Part shown: positions 33,701-60,201 of the stretch, piece after piece
Layout: each line of letters begins with the position of its first letter
How positions within the stretch are numbered: the first letter of the stretch is position 1
The notes under the pieces: model-generated
What the model saw: only the letters and a program-made list of their open reading frames with translations
Database searches by the model: none
What the model was told of the DNA's origin: nothing
Program-made: the position numbers and the translations under genes
Assembly (NCBI GenBank): GCA_017654855.1
Contig: CM030335.1
Span: forward strand, 1,736,001-1,800,000
DNA: 64,000 nt
Direction: 5' to 3'
Source: Podospora anserina
Lineage: Eukaryota

Positions 33701-33837
33701 AATCACCATTACCTACCTCTAGACATCTACTCGAGTCCGACAGCGCATTTTGCCCACATCAGCCGTTGCGCTCTGGGTCACCTATTTGGCTGGTACGTAT
33801 TCCCCTCGTCATTTTCCCCCCATTCTCCTCCAGGCTT

Positions 33838-33903
33838 CCATGATTATACGCAAGCTCGATTACTTGATTTCCAATGAGAATCAACGTGTTGTTGTTCTGA
33901 CAC
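33838..33903 (+). ncRNA. Intronic box C/D snoRNA candidate 1
   Basis: ATGATTA (33840) .. TTGA .. ATGAGA .. CTGA (33897) inside intron 33793-33983 (GTACGT..GCTAAC..TAG). Confidence 0.55.
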
Positions 33904-34063
33904 TGCCCTCATATCCTTCTCTTGTTTCTCTTGATCCACTTCAGATTCGCGGACATCGCTAACTATTGACATTCGATGACTAGATCAAGCCGGTGTACCA
34001 TCTTCCTTCCAGCGGACTGGAGCCTCTTCTTGGTACGTCTTGACATCTCCCAAGCACACAACC

Positions 34064-34142
34064 CACATGATGATCCTTCTTCCCATTTTTGATTCCACTT
34101 ATGAAAAAAAGAAAGAAGATACTCGACTCGTCGATCTGACAG
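34064..34142 (+). ncRNA. Intronic box C/D snoRNA candidate 2, predicted LSU rRNA guide
   Basis: ATGATGA (34067) .. CTGA (34136) inside intron 34033-34209 (GTACGT..GCTGAC..CAG). TACTCGACTCGTCGA before box D is antisense to the LSU 5'-domain sequence TCGACGAGTCGAGTA (recalled, needs checking). Confidence 0.75.
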
Positions 34143-34390
34143 GTATTTTTCCATTGACACTTATATTTTCCGGGATTCCTTGCGGTCGCTGACTTCATGT
34201 GCATATCAGGTCCATCAAGGCATATGCCAGCTTGATCAACCCGACATGTTCTCGGCCCCAACCTCCTGTGGTCAACGGTGTTTCCAGGGCTTCACAGTTC
34301 AACTTCTTCTTTTTGCTGATTCTAGGCCACTGGCCATGTTCACAAGCGGTATGTACACTCTTCATTTGACACCTCATCCCCCTCCAATGG

Positions 34391-34453
34391 CGCATGATGA
34401 CAATGCTGTGCTTGAATGACAATGAAAGCCACCTCTTGGCATTAATCTAATTT
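34391..34453 (+). ncRNA. Intronic box C/D snoRNA candidate 3 (degenerate D box)
   Basis: Perfect ATGATGA (34394) inside intron 34349-~34530 (GTATGT..GCTAAC..AG); D box is only CTAA. Confidence 0.4.
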
Positions 34454-34720
34454 GCCTTTCCTCATTCCTTGCCTTTCACATCTCTGCATTTTTATGGTAC
34501 AATGTGCTAACCATTTGTTCTCTTCAAGGTCGTCAGTCTATTCACAGCCAAGAGCCCACCTCATCTTCGAACTGCCGCGGCAACCTGGACACTGGTTTGA
34601 TACCTCACCACGGCATGCCCCTTGGCTCCTTCACTTGCCATCAACCTTCTTTCAATCAAGCCCGTTCGGCTGCTATTGGTATGTTCATTCCCTCTATTCC
34701 ACTTCTTCCCCAGCCCAATG

Positions 34721-34793
34721 GGTATGATGACACAACGAATTGATTCGACTCAAATATTGTTAAAAATGGGACTACAGAGTACAGATCTGATTT
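34721..34793 (+). ncRNA. Intronic box C/D snoRNA candidate 4
   Basis: ATGATGA (34724) .. CTGA (34787) inside intron 34679-~34868 (GTATGT..ACTGAC..TAG/CAG); D box ~55 nt upstream of the branch point. Confidence 0.65.
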
Positions 34794-35396
34794 GGCCTTC
34801 ACCATCCACATCACCCTTTCCTTCTGGAGTATTCTGTCCACATTACTGACATTGTTTCCGGCTAGCTGCAGAAACGACTAGGTCATCGACTGCCTACTCT
34901 TTTGCAATTGGTATGTCATCTCTTTCACTTCACCACGTTGCTTTTCATTTGCTGACTCGTCTGGTTTTGCACTATCAGGGTCACAATTTCACAACATCTC
35001 CTCTTCAGCTTTGCAACACTCTCCCGTTGTCCTCTCGACACTCCTCCTCTGTTCGTCCTTATTCGCTTACCCAGCTTCGTTTATCCTCCTTCATTCATCT
35101 TCCCCAAGGTTCAAAACCACCTGCTTGTGCGGCCATGGCTTTTCGGCAGTTGACGCAGCTCTTGCTCAGCGAGCTGTCTTTGCTGCCAAGCCCCTGAGCA
35201 TTGTGCTTCCAACCACACAGCCGGCTCTTTGACATCGCTGCCACCGACCCTTCCTTTCCCGTCCATCCTTCCTCGATCACACTTTTCCTATCTTTTCTTC
35301 ATCCCCTTCATGTTCCCACCCCTTTTCTCACCACCGGTAGCCAGCGTTGCCTCTCTTCCCCCATCCCCTTCCCAACCATCACCATCACCACCCACC

Positions 35397-38300
35397 GGCC
35401 CAATGATGGCACAACAGGACCCCTGTCTTTGCTCTTGGCACGGCATTGACAGCCCTGTTTCTGAGGGCCAAGGGGAAGCCAGGACGGTACACCCGACGCA
35501 TGGGCTTTCCCTTCCTGGCCGCAACTCGGGTTACTGTACCAGGTTTTCGGAGTTGTTTTCTTTGAGGGGGGGTGGCTGAGGACGTGGGTTCGTTGTCGGG
35601 CTCGCTTCGCCCCGCGTAGGTCATCCTCCTGGGTCCCTGGAGCCCACATTTCCATTTCTTTCTGCCCTCATGATGATGAGGTGGGCAAGCTCCTTTGCAG
35701 ACGCGGGGGAGTACTGTTGCACGTGCTGAGGGCAGATTTTCACCCATCGTTCTGTAGCGCTTTGCCGGCGCGAGGAAACGACTGTGTGCGTGGAAAGGCT
35801 TGTTGTGTTCTCATACTGAGACGCGATCAAGGAGCCTAACTGGGTGGCAATCAGGCACGCGCTCGGGGGCATCATCAAGTTCGTTCGCCGGAGCACTCTC
35901 TGGTTCGCTTGAGGGAGCGTTGAACTCGGAGATCATTTCGAAACTCGGTTTTCCCTCGACCTTGCGAGCGCAGTACAGTGTGTATCAGACGGGTTGGAAG
36001 ATCTTCACCCCGGATGGACTCTCGTCTGTTGGCTGGTGGTCAATGGGTGGACAACACCATCAAGATCGCCACATGCATGGTGTTTTGCGTCTCGGGCCTA
36101 TCACTAGCGCGGAGGTTAAGACTGAGGACGAAATCGCTTGCTTGACGATGTCGGCTGGCTTTCCGAGATCTGTCTCGCGCCTGTCAAGGTTTGTTGGGGT
36201 GTTTTTCTTTCTCTTCCCATTCCCCCTTCCCCGAGAGTTGTTGCGGTGTTGCTTTTCTTTCTCTATTTCCCCGTTGTTGTTGCCAGTTGGGCTTGGTGTT
36301 TCTTTTTCTTTTTTGTCGGTTGTTGTTGGGGTGTTTCTTTTCATTCGGGCCCCTGTTGGCAGTTGGTGTTGTCGGTTGGGGTTTCACTCTATCTGCCCCT
36401 ATTCAGTTGGTGTTGTCAGTCGGGGTGTTGTTGGGGGTGTTCCTTTACCTGCCTTCTGGCCCAATGATGACACGACATTCTGCTCTGCAAACGCAACAAT
36501 CTGTCTATCCTGAGGGCTTCTCCTGGAACAGAGGAGTCTTTTTTCTCAGTCTTCTGCATCTGGATTTGGCGATGGATGTTGCTGGGGTGGTCCTTTTTTC
36601 CCCTGCTGTTTTTCAGTTTTTCTTTTCTCTGGTCGATGATGAGAATGTCTGCCACTGACTAGACTTCTGAGACCCTCTTTTCTTTCTACTTCTTTTGTTT
36701 TCTTTCCTCTCCTTTTCAGCCTTTTTTCCTGTCTTTTCCAACCGTTTTCTTGTCTTGTCTTTTCCTTTCACACACCTCCGGTTTTTGCCTTTCCCCTTAT
36801 TTGGCCTGTGACATATATGTTAGTCAAGAGGCTGACAGACTTCTGAGGCTTACTTCCTTCTTTCTTTCTTTTCTTTCTGGTTTTTTCCGCTTCTCTTTTG
36901 CCTTGCTTTTCTATCTTGCTTCTTATTTTCTTTTCTATTTCCCTTTTCTGCCCCTGCGGTTTTGCATTTCCTTCACTGCTGCCCGTGATGAATATGTCGG
37001 CCAAACGGCTGGGACATCTGAGGCTCCGTTTCTTTTTTCTTTTGTTTTTTCTGTTTTCCTTTTCGCTTTTCCTTCTGTTTTGCCCTTTTTTTTTCCTCTC
37101 TTTTCTTACCTTTTTCTCCCTTCATTTTTATCTCCTTTTCTTTCACTTTTTATTCCCGCTTTTATTCTGTTTTCTTTTCTTGTTTTCTTTCCAGTTTTTC
37201 CCTCATTTTTCTCTTCAGTTCCTGCATTTTCATCATCATATAGCCCATGATGAGTTTGTCAGCAACGGCTAGACATTTGAGGCTCTTTCTTTTCTCACCT
37301 ACTCTCCCCTCTTAGATTTTTTTATGCCTGTTCCAGGCTACTTTTCTTACGTTATATTTTTCCATGAACTACTGAAGCTCAACACCGACGCTCAACAAGA
37401 CCAATGATGAAAGTGTCTCGCCGAGACTCTGAGGTTTTTCACTTTTCTCTGTGGGACCTGGGGGATCACTTTGGCTGCCTGCTTGTTTTTTTCTCTAGGC
37501 AAGTCCAATTCTTCGTCTTTTTCTCAGACTGGCTTTTGTCAGTGACGTTCGACTGTGAGATATGGCACCGATGACAATGGCAGACCTATACAGGGCTTGG
37601 CTTGCTAGTCTGAGGTCTTGCGCAGTTGCCCGACATACAGGGCGTACGGATTTGAAGAATACACGTGGGGTTGGTGGTGGACATCAGGACCATTTTTCTT
37701 TCTCATGTCCGCTTTTGTTTCCTTTTCTACTTTTTCTTCCCTACCCTTCGTTGCCTTGTTTCAATCGTTCTTCACCTCTTTTCCCTTTACTTTTATCCTT
37801 TTCCTCCCCTGTTCGCATTTCTCTGCTCTTTTTACCTTTCTCTGCCGTCTTTACTTTTCTCTTTCCCGTTCCCCGTTTTATCTTACAACATCACACCTCT
37901 TTCATGCGTCTTAGCGCAGGCATTTTCACCCAAACACGAAGAGTTTCACAGACCGATGATGACATATGCACACACATCCCTCCCGTCGTTTCGTTTCTCG
38001 CGGGAGAGAGACCTGTTTATTTTCTCGAAGGTCTAGTGCCACACACAGTTTGAGGTCATCATTTTCGCCTGGTCGTTTCTCACGTTTGGAGAGGGCTTCG
38101 TCAAACAACCACACTTTTGCTTCTACCTTTATTTGTCTTTTTTTCCCTTCATTTCTGCTGTCCTTACCCTTCTTTTTCACATTTTCTTTTCTACACTATC
38201 CTTCCCTCTTGTCCTTCTTTAGGCTTTCACAAAGTTTTTCTCCTTTTGACACCGAAACTATCAGAGACCAATGATGATAATCACCCCCGCATTGCTTTTC

Positions 38301-38770
38301 TTTTCTCACGCGGGAGTGAGACCTGTCTTGTTTTCTTCCACAGATCGAGTATTCCAAGTCTGAGGTCTTTATCGTTTTTTCTTTCTCAAGTTGTGCTTTT
38401 TGAGGGCTCTTGGGGGCACGCTTCTCTTGTTTTGTGGCTGGACAGACACCTGTAGTTGCAGTCATTTTCCCCGTCAACACGAAACTATCACAGACCAATG
38501 ATGACACCTACACGCATCCCTCCCGTTGTTTTCTTTCTCTCACGGGAGGGTGACCTGTTGTTTCTTTTCTCACAGGCCAAGCATCAAAGTCTGAGGTCTG
38601 AGGCTTTTCACTCTGGGGGATAAATTTGTGTAGTATTCTTTTTTCTTTTCATGCAACAAGACCTGTGATGACAATCACACACCCATCCCCCACCTCTCGT
38701 GGGTGGCAGGGAAGGAAAGACCTGGGGATATTGGTCCCGATAGGTCGAGTGTTATACAAGTTCTGAGGTC
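35397..38770 (+). ncRNA. Array of ~13 stem-closed box C/D (kink-turn) modules in pyrimidine-rich spacers
   Basis: Units at 35397-35469, 35661-35736, 36458-36518, 36631-36674, 36803-36850, 36981-37024, 37242-37284, 37398-37437, 37566-37617, 37951-38057, 38266-38367, 38493-38598 and 38660-38770. Each is stem-NN-(R)TGATGA...(C/T)TGA-complementary stem; the C box is degenerate in three. Confidence 0.75.
35760..36190 (+). ncRNA. Unidentified ~420-nt multibranch structured RNA domain
   Basis: Nested complementary pairs: GGCGCGAG 35767/CTCGCGCC 36174, GGAAAG 35792/CTTTCC 36159, GAGACGCG 35818/TGCGTCTC 36086, GCGCTCG/CGAGCGC, CAGACG/CGTCTG, AACACCAT/ATGGTGTT. Confidence 0.55.
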
Positions 38771-39091
38771 ATTGGTGTTACGAAGGGGTGTTTGTGGGGA
38801 TCTGGGAAGAGTCTGGGGGTTGCTGTGGGGATCAAGGTGGTTTTGGATGGTGGTTTACAGATAGAGAGTGTGTCGATGGAGGTAGCTTGGAAGAATGGTG
38901 TTCAATACGCGTATCTATATTGTCTTGTTCATCTAAAAGTATAAGAAACCAGATATTGGTCTAGCTTACATACATCAAGACATCTGTCAGAAACATTCCT
39001 CCGTTGTGCTCAGTCACTGTCCGCAACACCGATCCTCCGGAGTCATAACAAACCAACAATCACGCTACCTCTGAACCGTCAACCTCCCCTT

Positions 39092-40947
39092 TCACCGCCG
39101 ATAACCACCATACAACTGATGACGAGGTCCCGAGTGTTCCGGGGGCCAAAATTCATCCTCGGAGTCAGAGTCAGCCTGCGCCTGCCAACGCGGACCCCCA
39201 TAGCCATCCCTTGCCCGGCCAAAATCAGCATTGTCAAATGTTTGTGACCTTCGATTTTGCAACATTGGCATGACTGTCTGCGAATGTCGCGGGTATGGCA
39301 TGTTGTCTGTCCTTTCTTTGCTTCCCCGTGGGTTTATCCTGGGACTCTCGTACGGAGCAGAAGGTGACAGTCGCACATCATAACACTTTTGGTGATCTCT
39401 CTTGTTTCTTGGCGGCAGAATTGACTCTTGTAAGGAGCTCGATGAAGCAGCAGGGGAACAACTCATCGGAGCGGTGGGCATAACTGCTTCCACGTCAGGT
39501 GGACTGACGTAGATGTTGAGGTTGTCGTGGGGTGAGGTGGCGGGCATATCGACGATGCTAGGAACCCAAGGGCGAGTATCAGGACTTCCGGTTCGTAGAC
39601 GCCCGTTTTGAGAGGTTGTTGAATAGGCTGGCGAAAGGGAACGGGAACTGAGAACTGAAGAGAGCGCACTAGGAGGGCGTGCCTCATCCACGTCATGGAA
39701 TTCCATGCAGAAACTGACATTGTCCTCCCATGATGCATTCTTGAGAGAAGCTGGTGAATGGGTTCCCGCGCTGATGGCTCGAGGACTTGAAGGTTTGAGC
39801 TGAGAGGCGGCAAGGGCAGATGAAGACCTCTCTGCGGTTACGGGGCACCGTTCCTCTTTGGCATGCCCAGCTGGTTTGGCGGATATAGCTCCTCCCACGG
39901 TCGACGTCTCAGCCGGGTCTACTTGCGGCTCAAGCGGTCCCAGCAACCCGAACTCATGAGTTGTGTTGGAGGACATCAGAGGATCTGGAATCTTGCCGTC
40001 GGGTTGACGTCGTCTCCAACTAGCGGTCCTTCGTCGAAGGGCTCGATGCAACTGGCTGATACTGAAAGTCTCCGTATTGTTTCCAAACTCCTCAAGTTGT
40101 GCGCATAGGTTTTGGGTGAACGTATAGTCCCCATCTTGGATAGCCTTGCCATCAATGTCAACAGCCGCGAGAGTGACCATTGGTCTCGGCGGTGGCCGAT
40201 GCATGTGATCTATCGCATGCTGGCCTCTCTGCGCGTAGCAGCAGTCCAAGAGAATCAGGATATCAGCACCCTCTACATATTGTATTCTTGATAAAACATC
40301 CGTCGCCCAAGAAACGGATACGTCCTTGCTTTTTGGGCATCTTATCGTCAAGTTAGCGAAGGCAGCTAGCTCGTCGAGAAAGAATTTCGGGAGACTTACG
40401 GAACTAATAACAGGTCATTATCGGGTTCGTGGGGGTTGGCCACCGCATGACCACCGTAGTAGATGATGAGCAGGTCCAATGCGCCCTCCTCCTTCTTACT
40501 GCATTCATTGATCCGCTCGACAGTCTCGTTCAGTTTCTTGTCCAAGGCACGAGGATATTTTTCTGACGGAATGAGCCACTGCTCAATGTCATAGTTGTAT
40601 CCCAGCTGAAGAGTGTGGACAAACTCCTCCAGTTGCGTGTGAAACGGGTTCTCCCCCGTAGATGCATGCTCTCCTCCATCTTCTTCCCAGGCAAGGAACA
40701 GTCCCAAGACATTCTGATACTGTTGTTGACCCATCATACACTGTGTTGTGGAGTGTAGAGAAGCAGAATGCCGGCCGCAAATTGGGCGACATGGTGTTCC
40801 AAGGTTGGGCTGCTCCGTTGATGGGCACGGAGCCCAATCGAGGGGTCTGTTCCCTGTGTGGTTCAAACATCTGCGCCTGTTATCCATTGGTTCCAAAAGT
40901 CCCTCAAGTATCCTCAACATCACTTCCAAGGTCTCCATGCAGCTCAA
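39092..40947 (-). CDS. Caspase-fold (clan CD, C14-like) protease domain protein with disordered C-terminus
   Basis: VLGLFLAWEED, LLIIYYGGHA (catalytic His), DILILLDCCYA (catalytic Cys), FTQNL..L. Intron 40399-40341 (GTAAGT..GCTAAC..AAG) joins the two ORFs in frame. Start uncertain (~40736 or 40938/40947). Confidence 0.8.
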
Positions 40948-60119: not shown

Positions 60120-60201
60120 CGACGTGGGCCTGATTCGAACAGACGCTCCCGAAGGAACAAGATTTCTAGTCTTGCGCGTTAGACCACTCCGCCACCACGC
60201 C
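60120..60201 (-). tRNA. tRNA-Ser(AGA), intronless
   Basis: GGCGTGG acceptor/CCACGTC+G, D arm TGGCGGAGTGGTCTAA, anticodon stem CAAGA-CTAGAAA-TCTTG, long variable arm, GTTCGAAT T loop, downstream T run. Confidence 0.95.

What the first reader, a model, noticed from the sequence alone, without database searches (positions are those of the whole stretch)
36631..37617. Miniature (~40-52 nt) C/D modules with a hairpin in place of a guide
Seen: six units, e.g. GGTC-GATGATGA-GAATGTCTGCCACTGACTAGACTT-CTGA-GACC and AGACC-AATGATGA-AAGTGTCTCGCCGAGACT-CTGA-GGTTT. The interior is a self-complementary hairpin (TGTC/GACA, GTCT/AGAC), leaving no free antisense element and no C'/D' pair. They are shorter than typical eukaryotic methylation guides, so they are probably pure K-turn protein-binding sites (inference). 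Shared ATGTC..GC..GCT..GAC interiors suggest local duplication.
Basis: partly seen in the sequence, partly recalled or inferred. Interest (0 to 1): 0.75.

Follow-up and report, generated by a model that had tools for sequence, protein, structure and literature searches.

The report
Miniature guide-less C/D-box RNA units
Six very short box C/D snoRNA-like units sit inside a transcribed non-coding snoRNA host locus of a Podospora fungus; they look like shrunken copies of larger neighbouring snoRNA-like genes that kept the protein-binding ends and have no detectable rRNA guide.

Summary
Six C/D-type units lie at 36631-37617 (+), each built as terminal stem, one free nucleotide, C box, 18-32 nt interior, D box, terminal stem. 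A strict motif scan finds only three hits in the whole window on both strands, and all three are here (null 0.11).

The units are part of a larger array of 13 C/D-like units (35.4-38.8 kb). The array follows a spliced, ORF-less, UHG-like snoRNA host gene in a Podospora anserina-complex genome. Contigs from spliced, RNA-like runs cover the whole array without joints.

- **Relationships:** U1-U4 are paralogs. U5 and U6 look like internally deleted copies of the ~100-nt neighbours H1-H4.
- **Selection:** the units stay 58-80% alike while their flanks are randomised, and the terminal stem shows two compensatory pairs.
- **Interiors:** they fold better than shuffles in U2-U5 but show no covariation.
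- **Targets:** no rRNA target was found in 106 fungal rDNA loci. However, only 1 of the 11 longer units gave one, so this negative is weak.
- **Degeneracy:** U2 and U6 have degenerate C boxes.

Best reading: truncated, guide-less C/D core RNPs. Protein binding and discrete small RNAs are untested. This is a new variant of a known kind, of moderate interest.

The parts
33793..34979 (+). Spliced 5' part of a non-coding, UHG-like snoRNA host gene. It has five GT..AG introns: 33793-33984, 34033-34210/34220, 34349-34529/34537, 34679-34866 and 34911-34979.
   Evidence: The joints appear in contigs of runs X1 and X5 and are absent from DNA run X15. GT/AG ends were verified. The spliced RNA has no ORF longer than 152 aa.
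34062..34141 (+). Intronic canonical C/D snoRNA 'B', with a 14-15-nt guide directly upstream of its D box.
   Evidence: Its 14-mer antisense element matches 24 of 106 fungal rDNA loci at +769..+801 from the primer site, in the 5' region of the LSU. It is the only positive control that worked.
35396..35472 (+). Unit E: a C/D-like RNA, 62 nt box-to-box, with a 5-bp terminal stem and a strongly paired interior.
   Evidence: interior MFE z -3.42. Its 5' flank is a paralog of G's (family D16).
35664..35738 (+). Unit F: a C/D-like RNA, 57 nt box-to-box, with a paired interior.
   Evidence: z -2.12; whole unit z -2.52.
36459..36519 (+). Unit G: a C/D-like RNA, 50 nt box-to-box.
   Evidence: CM R1 gives 12.4 bits, E 0.31.
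36631..36674 (+). U1: miniature C/D unit with perfect boxes, a 4-bp terminal stem, a 24-nt interior and a GUCU/AGAC stem.
   Evidence: 56.3 bits.
36803..36850 (+). U2: miniature unit with a degenerate C box (GUGACAU), D box CUGA and an 8-bp interior stem.
   Evidence: z -3.5; 47.7 bits.
36981..37025 (+). U3: miniature unit with perfect boxes, a 3-bp terminal stem and a 26-nt interior.
   Evidence: z -2.58; 54.4 bits.
37243..37284 (+). U4: miniature unit with a perfect C box, D box UUGA and a 23-nt interior.
   Evidence: z -1.72; 52.9 bits.
37398..37437 (+). U5: the smallest unit (29 nt box-to-box), with perfect boxes, a 6-bp terminal stem and a GUCUC/GAGAC stem. Its 5' flank is H-type.
   Evidence: z -2.18; families D2/D3.
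37566..37617 (+). U6: unit with a degenerate C box (AUGACAA) and an H-type 3' end. Its interior is not significantly structured.
   Evidence: z -0.45; D19; 7.9 bits.
37950..38772 (+). H1-H4 (37950-38058, 38265-38369, 38492-38600, 38659-38772): four paralogous C/D RNAs, 93-102 nt box-to-box, with AGACC/GGUCU terminal stems and internal hairpins.
   Evidence: No rRNA match.
35568..38772 (.). Stretch covered without any joint by contigs of spliced, RNA-like runs; taken as the unspliced polycistronic part of the host RNA. The strand is not shown by contigs.
   Evidence: X1 record 4 covers 35568-38721; X5 record 12 covers 35591-40340; X6 records cover 36539-36810, 36922-37664 and 37662-38772.

Best explanation
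The six units are truncated members of a lineage-specific, tandemly duplicated array of orphan box C/D snoRNA-like genes. The array lies in the unspliced 3' part of a non-coding snoRNA host transcript of a Podospora anserina-complex fungus.

**Shown.**
- Each unit keeps the C/D core: a terminal stem, a 3-nt bulge, tandem GA in both boxes, and U/U plus G-C (or G-U) in four of six units.
- U1-U4 are paralogs of one another.
- U5 and U6 share their flanks and ends with the ~100-nt H-type units and lack the middle part of those units.
- The region is present in spliced, RNA-like assemblies.

**Inferred mechanism.**
1. The host RNA is made by Pol II.
2. The terminal stem and the short interior stem bring the C and D boxes together into a K-turn.
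3. Snu13 binds the K-turn, followed by Nop58 and Nop1.
4. Exonucleases trim the unstructured CU-rich spacers back to the particle. This releases RNAs of about 40-50 nt that carry one C/D motif, no C'/D' motif and no usable antisense element.
5. The products are therefore guide-less 'stub' snoRNPs. Any activity would come from occupying core proteins rather than from guiding methylation.

U2 and U6, which have broken stem-II positions in the C box, are probably decaying copies.
For: - **Motif statistics.** The strict motif gives 3 hits in the window and all 3 are here (null 0.11). The relaxed motif gives 9 hits, 6 of them the units (null 1.32).
- **Common architecture.** All 13 units in the array share the same build, including a one-nucleotide offset before the C box.
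- **Paralogy and likely internal deletion.** See and the CM search.
- **Signs of constraint.** Unit identity is 0.58-0.80 (z 3.0-7.6), while the 60-nt flanks are indistinguishable from shuffles (z -1.4 to +2.6). The terminal helix is 95% paired, and 2 of its 4 pairs changed on both sides.
- **Transcription.** Contigs of X1, X5 and X6 cover the array. In X1 and X5 the same runs show GT..AG joints that DNA run X15 lacks.
- **Non-coding host.** The spliced host RNA has no ORF longer than 152 aa.
- **No rRNA guide.** In 291,615 nt from 106 fungal rDNA loci, the best perfect matches for U1-U6 are 10-12-mers found in 1-2 loci, which is chance level. Intronic unit B has a 14-mer in 24 loci.
- **Size and guide norms.** N. 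crassa guides are 10-17 bp with 0-1 mismatch, and its C/D snoRNAs are 69-212 nt (Table 1 of PMC2780460).
Against: - No small-RNA evidence exists. Contigs cannot show discrete 40-50-nt species, RNA ends or the strand.
- No holder of the stretch is on record as RNA.
- The rRNA negative does not discriminate. Of the 11 longer units tested (A-G, H1-H4), 10 also gave no match. Podospora's own rRNA, spacers, snRNAs and tRNAs could not be searched.
- The interior sequence blocks (UGUC...GGCU.GAC) are conserved among U1-U4. That could mean a sequence-specific role, such as a short guide or a protein site, rather than an empty stub.
- The interior helix shows no compensatory change (0 of 6 pairs).
- Conservation in other species could not be tested, because no fungal genome collection was available.
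Confidence: 0.45

Rival explanations
1. The units are neutral relics (snoRNA pseudogenes). They are leftovers of duplication and internal deletion that no longer assemble stable particles and are degraded together with the spacers.
For: - U2 and U6 have 3 and 2 changes in the C box, and U4 has one change in the D box.
- Whole-unit folding z-scores are weak.
- There is no family match in Rfam.
- The array evolves by indels.
- Passages of the SnoBIRD paper (PMC12309372) describe pseudogenes as having mutated boxes and weak terminal stems.
Against: - U1, U3 and U5 have perfect boxes.
- No unit meets that paper's combined rule of C-box score >=2 together with D-box score >=1.
- The host locus is covered by RNA-like contigs.
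- The units stay alike while their flanks are randomised.
- The terminal stem has two compensatory pairs.
Confidence: 0.2
2. The units are functional, very short single-guide methylation guides. The conserved block just upstream of the D box (GGCU.GAC.U in U1-U4) pairs with a target that is not in the rRNA set searched, such as an snRNA, a tRNA, a pre-rRNA spacer or an mRNA.
For: - The sequence of the D-adjacent block, and not only its pairing, is conserved.
- The interiors (18-32 nt) are long enough for one 10-12-nt guide.
- N. crassa has C/D RNAs with predicted tRNA and snRNA targets (Table 1 of PMC2780460).
- The rRNA search also missed targets for 10 of the 11 longer units, so it is not exhaustive.
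Against: - No conserved perfect complementarity of 11 nt or more was found in 106 rDNA loci.
- Ungapped scores do not exceed shuffles: p >= 0.15, apart from one spacer hit in a single locus at p 0.04.
- The candidate guide is partly sequestered in the interior stem.
- The four paralogs would specify different targets beyond a shared 4-5 nt.
Confidence: 0.15
3. The units act in cis. As K-turn particles spaced along a 3.2-kb RNA, they block exonucleases and so define or stabilise CU-rich RNA segments with snoRNP ends (sno-lncRNA or SPA-like). Alternatively, they turn the whole RNA into a multivalent scaffold or sponge for C/D core proteins.
For: - Spacers and units are assembled together in contigs of three RNA-like runs from three studies, so spacer RNA persists at assembly-level abundance.
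- There are 13 K-turn-type motifs in 3.4 kb, separated by pyrimidine-rich spacers.
- sno-lncRNAs are terminated at both ends by snoRNAs, and SPAs are 5' snoRNA-capped (starts of the abstracts of PMC4288147 and PMC12084880, seen in the listing).
Against: - Contigs cannot show RNA ends or separate species.
- The persistent RNA may simply be unprocessed polyadenylated precursor.
- The search listing showed no fungal example.
- Nothing here tests protein binding.
Confidence: 0.15

Closest known systems
Eukaryotic box C/D snoRNAs of Sordariales (N. crassa Nc CD1-CD55; UHG-like host genes with intronic and one exon-encoded snoRNA)
   Same: - C box RUGAUGA, D box CUGA and a short terminal stem.
- Location in a spliced, non-coding host locus.
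- The N. crassa paper describes UHG-like cluster hosts and an exon-encoded CD6 (passages of PMC2780460).
   Different: - The units are 40-52 nt, against 69-212 nt in N. crassa.
- They have no C'/D' pair.
- No antisense element of 10 bp or more to rRNA was found.
- The interior is largely self-paired.
- No Rfam family reaches its threshold.
Orphan C/D snoRNA arrays and snoRNA-ended lncRNAs (sno-lncRNA, SPA) of the human Prader-Willi region
   Same: Both are tandem arrays of paralogous C/D units without rRNA targets, set inside a long non-coding host RNA whose inter-snoRNA sequence persists (abstracts seen in the listing).
   Different: - The kingdom is different.
- The units here are far shorter.
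- No evidence exists for snoRNP-capped ends.
- The SNORD116 CM hit on H1 is only 18.4 bits against a gathering score of 35, so this is an analogy and not homology.
snoRNA pseudogenes as defined for SnoBIRD
   Same: The units are duplicated copies, some with box mutations (U2, U6, U4) and some with weak stems (U3 and U6 have 3 bp).
   Different: - The host locus is covered by RNA-like contigs.
- Three units have perfect boxes.
- The units are conserved relative to their flanks.
Stand-alone K-turn hairpins that bind Snu13/15.5K (U4 snRNA 5' stem-loop, U3 B/C motif); recalled, not fetched
   Same: Both are a K-turn-type motif closed on the non-canonical side by a short hairpin rather than by guide regions.
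   Different: - Here 2-5 unpaired nucleotides separate the box pairs from the hairpin.
- The boxes follow the C/D consensus.
- The comparison rests on recalled knowledge only.

Membership tests
Box C/D snoRNA | C box RUGAUGA near the 5' end | tested here: met
   The C box is perfect in U1, U3, U4 and U5. U2 (GUGACAU) and U6 (AUGACAA) keep the first GA but not positions 5-6. The feature is met in 4 of 6 units.
Box C/D snoRNA | D box CUGA near the 3' end | tested here: met
   The D box is CUGA in 5 of 6 units; U4 has UUGA.
Box C/D snoRNA | Terminal stem joining the 5' and 3' ends next to the boxes | tested here: met
   All six have 3-6 bp. In the U1-U5 alignment 95% of cells are paired, and 2 of 4 pairs show compensatory change.
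Box C/D snoRNA | Antisense element of 10-21 nt ending at D or D', complementary to rRNA or snRNA (D+5 rule) | tested here: not met
   No conserved perfect match was found in 106 fungal rDNA loci; the best hits are 10-12-mers in 1-2 loci. Ungapped scores do not exceed shuffles. This covers rRNA only. snRNA, tRNA and Podospora's own spacers are not testable here, and the control worked for only 1 of the 11 longer units.
Box C/D snoRNA | Internal C'/D' motif | tested here: not met
   The interiors are 18-32 nt. U1 and U2 contain an internal CUGA, but no C' partner and no room for one.
Box C/D snoRNA | Stable small RNA bound by Snu13, Nop56, Nop58 and Nop1 | not testable with these tools
   Only contigs of older runs were available. 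They show coverage, not discrete species or RNA ends.
Any curated Rfam family | Score at or above the family's gathering threshold | tested here: not met
   The gathering search of the window found only a tRNA. The best permissive hits on the units are sR47 (15.6 bits against 40), SNORD109A (16.7 against 35) and SNORD23 (15.4 against 64).
snoRNA pseudogene (SnoBIRD criteria) | C-box score >=2 together with D-box score >=1, an unstable terminal stem, and a non-expressed host | tested here: not met
   No unit combines both box defects: U2 scores 3/0, U6 2/0 and U4 0/1. The host is covered by RNA-like contigs. The criteria come from passages of PMC12309372. Stem stability scores were not computed in that paper's way.
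sno-lncRNA / SPA-type RNA | RNA species whose 5' and/or 3' end is a snoRNP rather than a cap or poly(A) tail | not testable with these tools
   Contigs cannot show starts or ends.
K-turn (C/D type) | Canonical stem, 3-nt bulge, tandem sheared G-A pairs, then a U-U pair and a G-C pair | tested here: inconclusive
   The sequence pattern fits in U1, U3 and U5, and in U4 with G-U in place of G-C. U2 and U6 have C/U and A/C at the two positions after the GA pairs. Folding into a K-turn and protein binding are not computable here, and the rule is recalled.

The most novel reading that the evidence does not exclude
The 3.2-kb unspliced RNA is itself the functional product. In this reading it is a fungal 'K-turn array' lncRNA in which 13 C/D motifs, at least six of them guide-less miniatures, are spaced by pyrimidine tracts.

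The miniatures would act as snoRNP caps or roadblocks. They would either carve the RNA into snoRNP-ended CU-rich segments, or make the RNA a multivalent sink for Snu13, Nop58 and Nop1, and for pyrimidine-tract binding proteins. That would be a fungal counterpart of the human SNORD116 / sno-lncRNA / SPA system, arisen independently.
Probability: 0.12. Interest if true: 0.75.

Novelty: new variant of a known kind. Interest (0 to 1): 0.45.

Why it matters
If U1, U3, U4 and U5 accumulate as particles of about 40-50 nt, they would be well below the 69-nt minimum listed for the relative Neurospora. To my recollection they would also be among the shortest eukaryotic C/D RNAs. They would be natural examples of a C/D core motif kept without a guide. 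That would make two questions testable in a genetically tractable fungus: what the minimal unit for snoRNP assembly and trimming is in vivo, and whether guide-less C/D particles have a titrating or cis-protective role.

The locus also shows how a snoRNA array evolves by duplication and internal deletion. It adds about 17 unannotated C/D-like genes to a genome for which the genome paper lists only 13-15 snoRNAs (passages of PMC2441463). If the units turn out to be mere relics, the finding is ordinary.

Tried and rejected
- **Whole genome.** None is held for this window, so other copies and Podospora's own rRNA, snRNA and tRNA genes could not be searched.
- **Sequencing runs.** No RNA holder is listed. 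I laid four runs, all kept as contigs. Coverage gaps at 38722-38839 (X1) and 38773-38849 (X6) lie just past unit H4, but X5 bridges them, so I do not use them as evidence for an RNA 3' end.
- **Rfam.** The gathering search and three permissive searches gave no family.
- **rRNA targets.**
  - One metagenome scan with a standard fungal ITS primer gave 106 loci.
  - An exact 11-mer scan and a 9-mer scan were dominated by chance hits of the CU-rich spacers.
  - The first reference locus chosen, L004, turned out to be atypical.
  - L017 and L067 gave no significant duplex for any mini unit.
  - U1's best conserved match is 9 bp with one G-U, to an SSU site present in 34 loci. I treat it as chance; U1's top ungapped scores were no better than shuffles (p 0.21-0.9).
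  - G's guide pairs with a conserved SSU site only with a mismatch next to the D+5 position, and the score is not significant (p 0.15).
- **Targets inside the window.** The first script returned trivial self-matches because of my bug. The corrected run gave only 10-11-mers at chance level.
- **Covariation of the interior stem.** None was found.
- **RNAalifold on H1-H4.** The result was limited by a poor alignment of hairpin 1.
- **CM R1 over the window with filters off.** It found no further copies.
- **Earlier findings.** Nothing is on record.
- **Coding potential.** I checked whether the host is protein-coding and rejected that.
- **Segment 35740-36190.** Its fold is not better than shuffles (z -0.89).
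- **Supplements.** Those of the N. crassa and fungal snoRNAome papers hold snoRNA sequences and might reveal orthologs of these units.
Full report
**Observation**

The six units exist on the + strand as described. A coordinate table shows one common build. Each unit has a terminal stem of 3-6 bp, one unpaired nucleotide, a 7-nt C box, an interior of 18-32 nt, a 4-nt D box and the other arm of the stem.

- U1, U3 and U5 have consensus boxes.
- U4 has D box UUGA.
- U2 (GUGACAU) and U6 (AUGACAA) keep the first GA of the C box but not the two positions after it.

A strict pattern scan of the whole window on both strands returns exactly three hits: U1, U3 and U5. The Markov-1 null mean is 0.11. A relaxed pattern returns nine hits, six of which are the units, against a null mean of 1.32. 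The arrangement is therefore far beyond chance.

**Context**

A homogentisate dioxygenase ORF in the window is 99% identical to the Podospora comata protein, and the next hits are about 80%. The window therefore comes from the P. anserina species complex.

No run is on record as RNA. However, contigs of runs X1 and X5 carry five GT..AG joints between 33.79 and 34.98 kb, plus one joint for the convergent minus-strand gene. DNA run X15 lacks all of these joints (ends checked). These runs therefore behave as transcriptome assemblies.

The spliced RNA has no ORF above 152 aa. At least two of its introns hold C/D snoRNAs (B and D). This makes it a UHG-like host of the kind described for Neurospora crassa clusters (passages of PMC2780460).

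Downstream, contigs of X1 (35568-38721), X5 (35591-40340) and X6 (three pieces, 36539-38772) cover the region without any joint. Contigs show neither the strand nor RNA ends. The + strand is inferred from two things: the upstream + strand splicing runs into this region, and all the motifs point the same way.

**The array**

The six units are part of 13 C/D-like units between 35.4 and 38.8 kb, all with the same build: E, F, G, U1-U6 and H1-H4. The spacers are pyrimidine-rich, with AT skew -0.51 at 36-38 kb.

Flank and end similarities define three groups:
- E and G.
- U1-U4.
- U5, U6 and H1-H4, which share AGACC...GGUCU ends.

In the alignment with H1-H4, U5 shares the 25-nt upstream flank and both ends. 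U6 shares the 5' part and the last ~30 nt. Both lack the middle, so the simplest history is internal deletion.

A covariance model built from U1-U5 finds no further copies in the window and gives U6 only 7.9 bits. No Rfam family comes near its threshold.

**Are the units under constraint?**

- Pairwise identity of U1-U5 is 0.58-0.80 (z 3.0-7.6 against shuffles). The 60-nt flanks on either side cannot be told from shuffled sequence (z -1.4 to +2.6).
- In the U1-U5 alignment the terminal helix is 95% paired, and two of its four pairs changed on both sides.

Both results argue that at least the core motif has been maintained since duplication. There are two caveats. Low-complexity spacers may diverge unusually fast, and there are only five sequences.

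**Interior**

Interiors fold better than mononucleotide shuffles in U2, U3 and U5, marginally in U4, and not significantly in U1 or U6. The combined z is -4.65, but it is inflated by paralogy.

The shared core is GUC...GAC at fixed distances from the boxes, extended in different directions in different copies. No pair shows a compensatory change.

E and F also have strongly paired interiors, whereas intronic B and D do not. A self-paired interior is thus a trait of the exonic array and not only of the miniatures.

**Guide test**

I fetched 106 fungal rDNA loci with a standard ITS primer. I then searched 291,615 nt around the primer site for complementarity.

- Intronic unit B has a 14-mer, directly upstream of its D box, that matches 24 loci at one LSU position. 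The method can therefore find a real guide.
- U1-U6 give only 10-12-mers in one or two loci at scattered positions, as expected by chance. Ungapped scores against two complete references do not exceed shuffles.
- Ten of the eleven longer units (A, C-G, H1-H4) also gave nothing.

So either most of this locus is orphan, or its targets lie outside conserved rRNA. The negative result for the miniatures is real but does not set them apart. For scale, N. crassa guides are 10-17 bp with 0-1 mismatch, its C/D snoRNAs are 69-212 nt, and only two are orphans (Table 1 and passages of PMC2780460).

**Interpretation**

The best-supported reading (0.45) is that the miniatures are truncated paralogs that retain a working C/D core and have lost guide capacity. 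They would probably be bound by core proteins and trimmed out of the CU-rich precursor as particles of about 40-50 nt. U2 and U6 would be decaying copies. The assembly and trimming steps are inferred from established snoRNP biology, which is recalled and not tested here.

The rivals are:
- Plain relics that never assemble (0.20).
- Short single guides for unsearched targets (0.15).
- Cis-acting caps, or a multivalent K-turn scaffold (0.15).

The last rival is the most novel. It resembles human sno-lncRNA and SPA RNAs (abstract starts seen in the listing), but nothing here shows RNA ends.

**Novelty**

The search listed 15 of the 19 papers that hold both 'Podospora anserina' and 'snoRNA', and none of those titles points to this array. 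In the two I opened by passages:
- The genome paper lists 13-15 snoRNAs.
- The fungal snoRNAome paper notes an increased apparent loss of C/D families in P. anserina.

A re-annotation paper from another search reports 1732 unannotated transcribed regions without mentioning snoRNAs.

I rate the finding a new variant of a known kind, with moderate interest that depends on small-RNA and binding data.

Noticed in passing
window 33793-34979 (+): The spliced non-coding host uses different 3' splice sites in two runs: 34209 (X5) against 34219 (X1), and 34528 (X1) against 34536 (X5). This recalls the alternative splicing reported for N. crassa snoRNA host genes.
   Followed up: partly
window 34062-34141 and 34719-34796 (+): Two well-formed intronic C/D snoRNAs are present. 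B has a 14-15-nt guide to the 5' region of the LSU, conserved in 24 of 106 fungal rDNA loci. D has perfect boxes, but no rRNA match was found for it.
   Followed up: partly
window 37950-38772 (+): H1-H4 are four paralogous C/D RNAs of about 105-115 nt with two internal hairpins. The second hairpin, GACCUG...CAGGUC, is kept in all four. About 25 nt upstream of the terminal stem is conserved (96% between H2 and H3). They have no Rfam family and no rRNA match.
   Followed up: partly
window 36190-36600 (+): A GU-rich block followed by a CU-rich block (GGUUGUUGUUGGGGUGUUUCUUUU-like) recurs four times, at 36233, 36318, 36423 and 36574. Related GU-rich repeats lie at 36271, 36360 and 36404. They sit inside the transcribed array, between F and U1, and their role is unknown.
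   Followed up: no
window 35675 (+): Contigs of X1 and X5 lack one base inside the overlapping ATGATGATGA C-box run of unit F, relative to the window and to DNA run X15. This is a strain difference inside a box.
   Followed up: no
window 35740-36190 (+): A 450-nt segment inside the unspliced RNA is not pyrimidine-rich. It holds no C/D unit and no Rfam hit, and it does not fold better than shuffles (z -0.89).
   Followed up: partly
window 39092-40400 (-): A convergent gene has a 419-aa ORF with no Pfam match and a 59-nt intron (40341-40399; CT..AC on the + strand). One X5 contig runs from this gene straight through the C/D array.
   Followed up: no
window 60120-60201 (-): A tRNA-Ser (anticodon AGA) is the only Rfam hit at gathering level in the window.
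   Followed up: no
window 36497-36513 (+): The D-adjacent element of unit G pairs with a highly conserved SSU site over 13 positions, apart from a U/U mismatch next to the D+5 position. It could be a decayed guide of a known type, but the score is not significant (p 0.15).
   Followed up: partly
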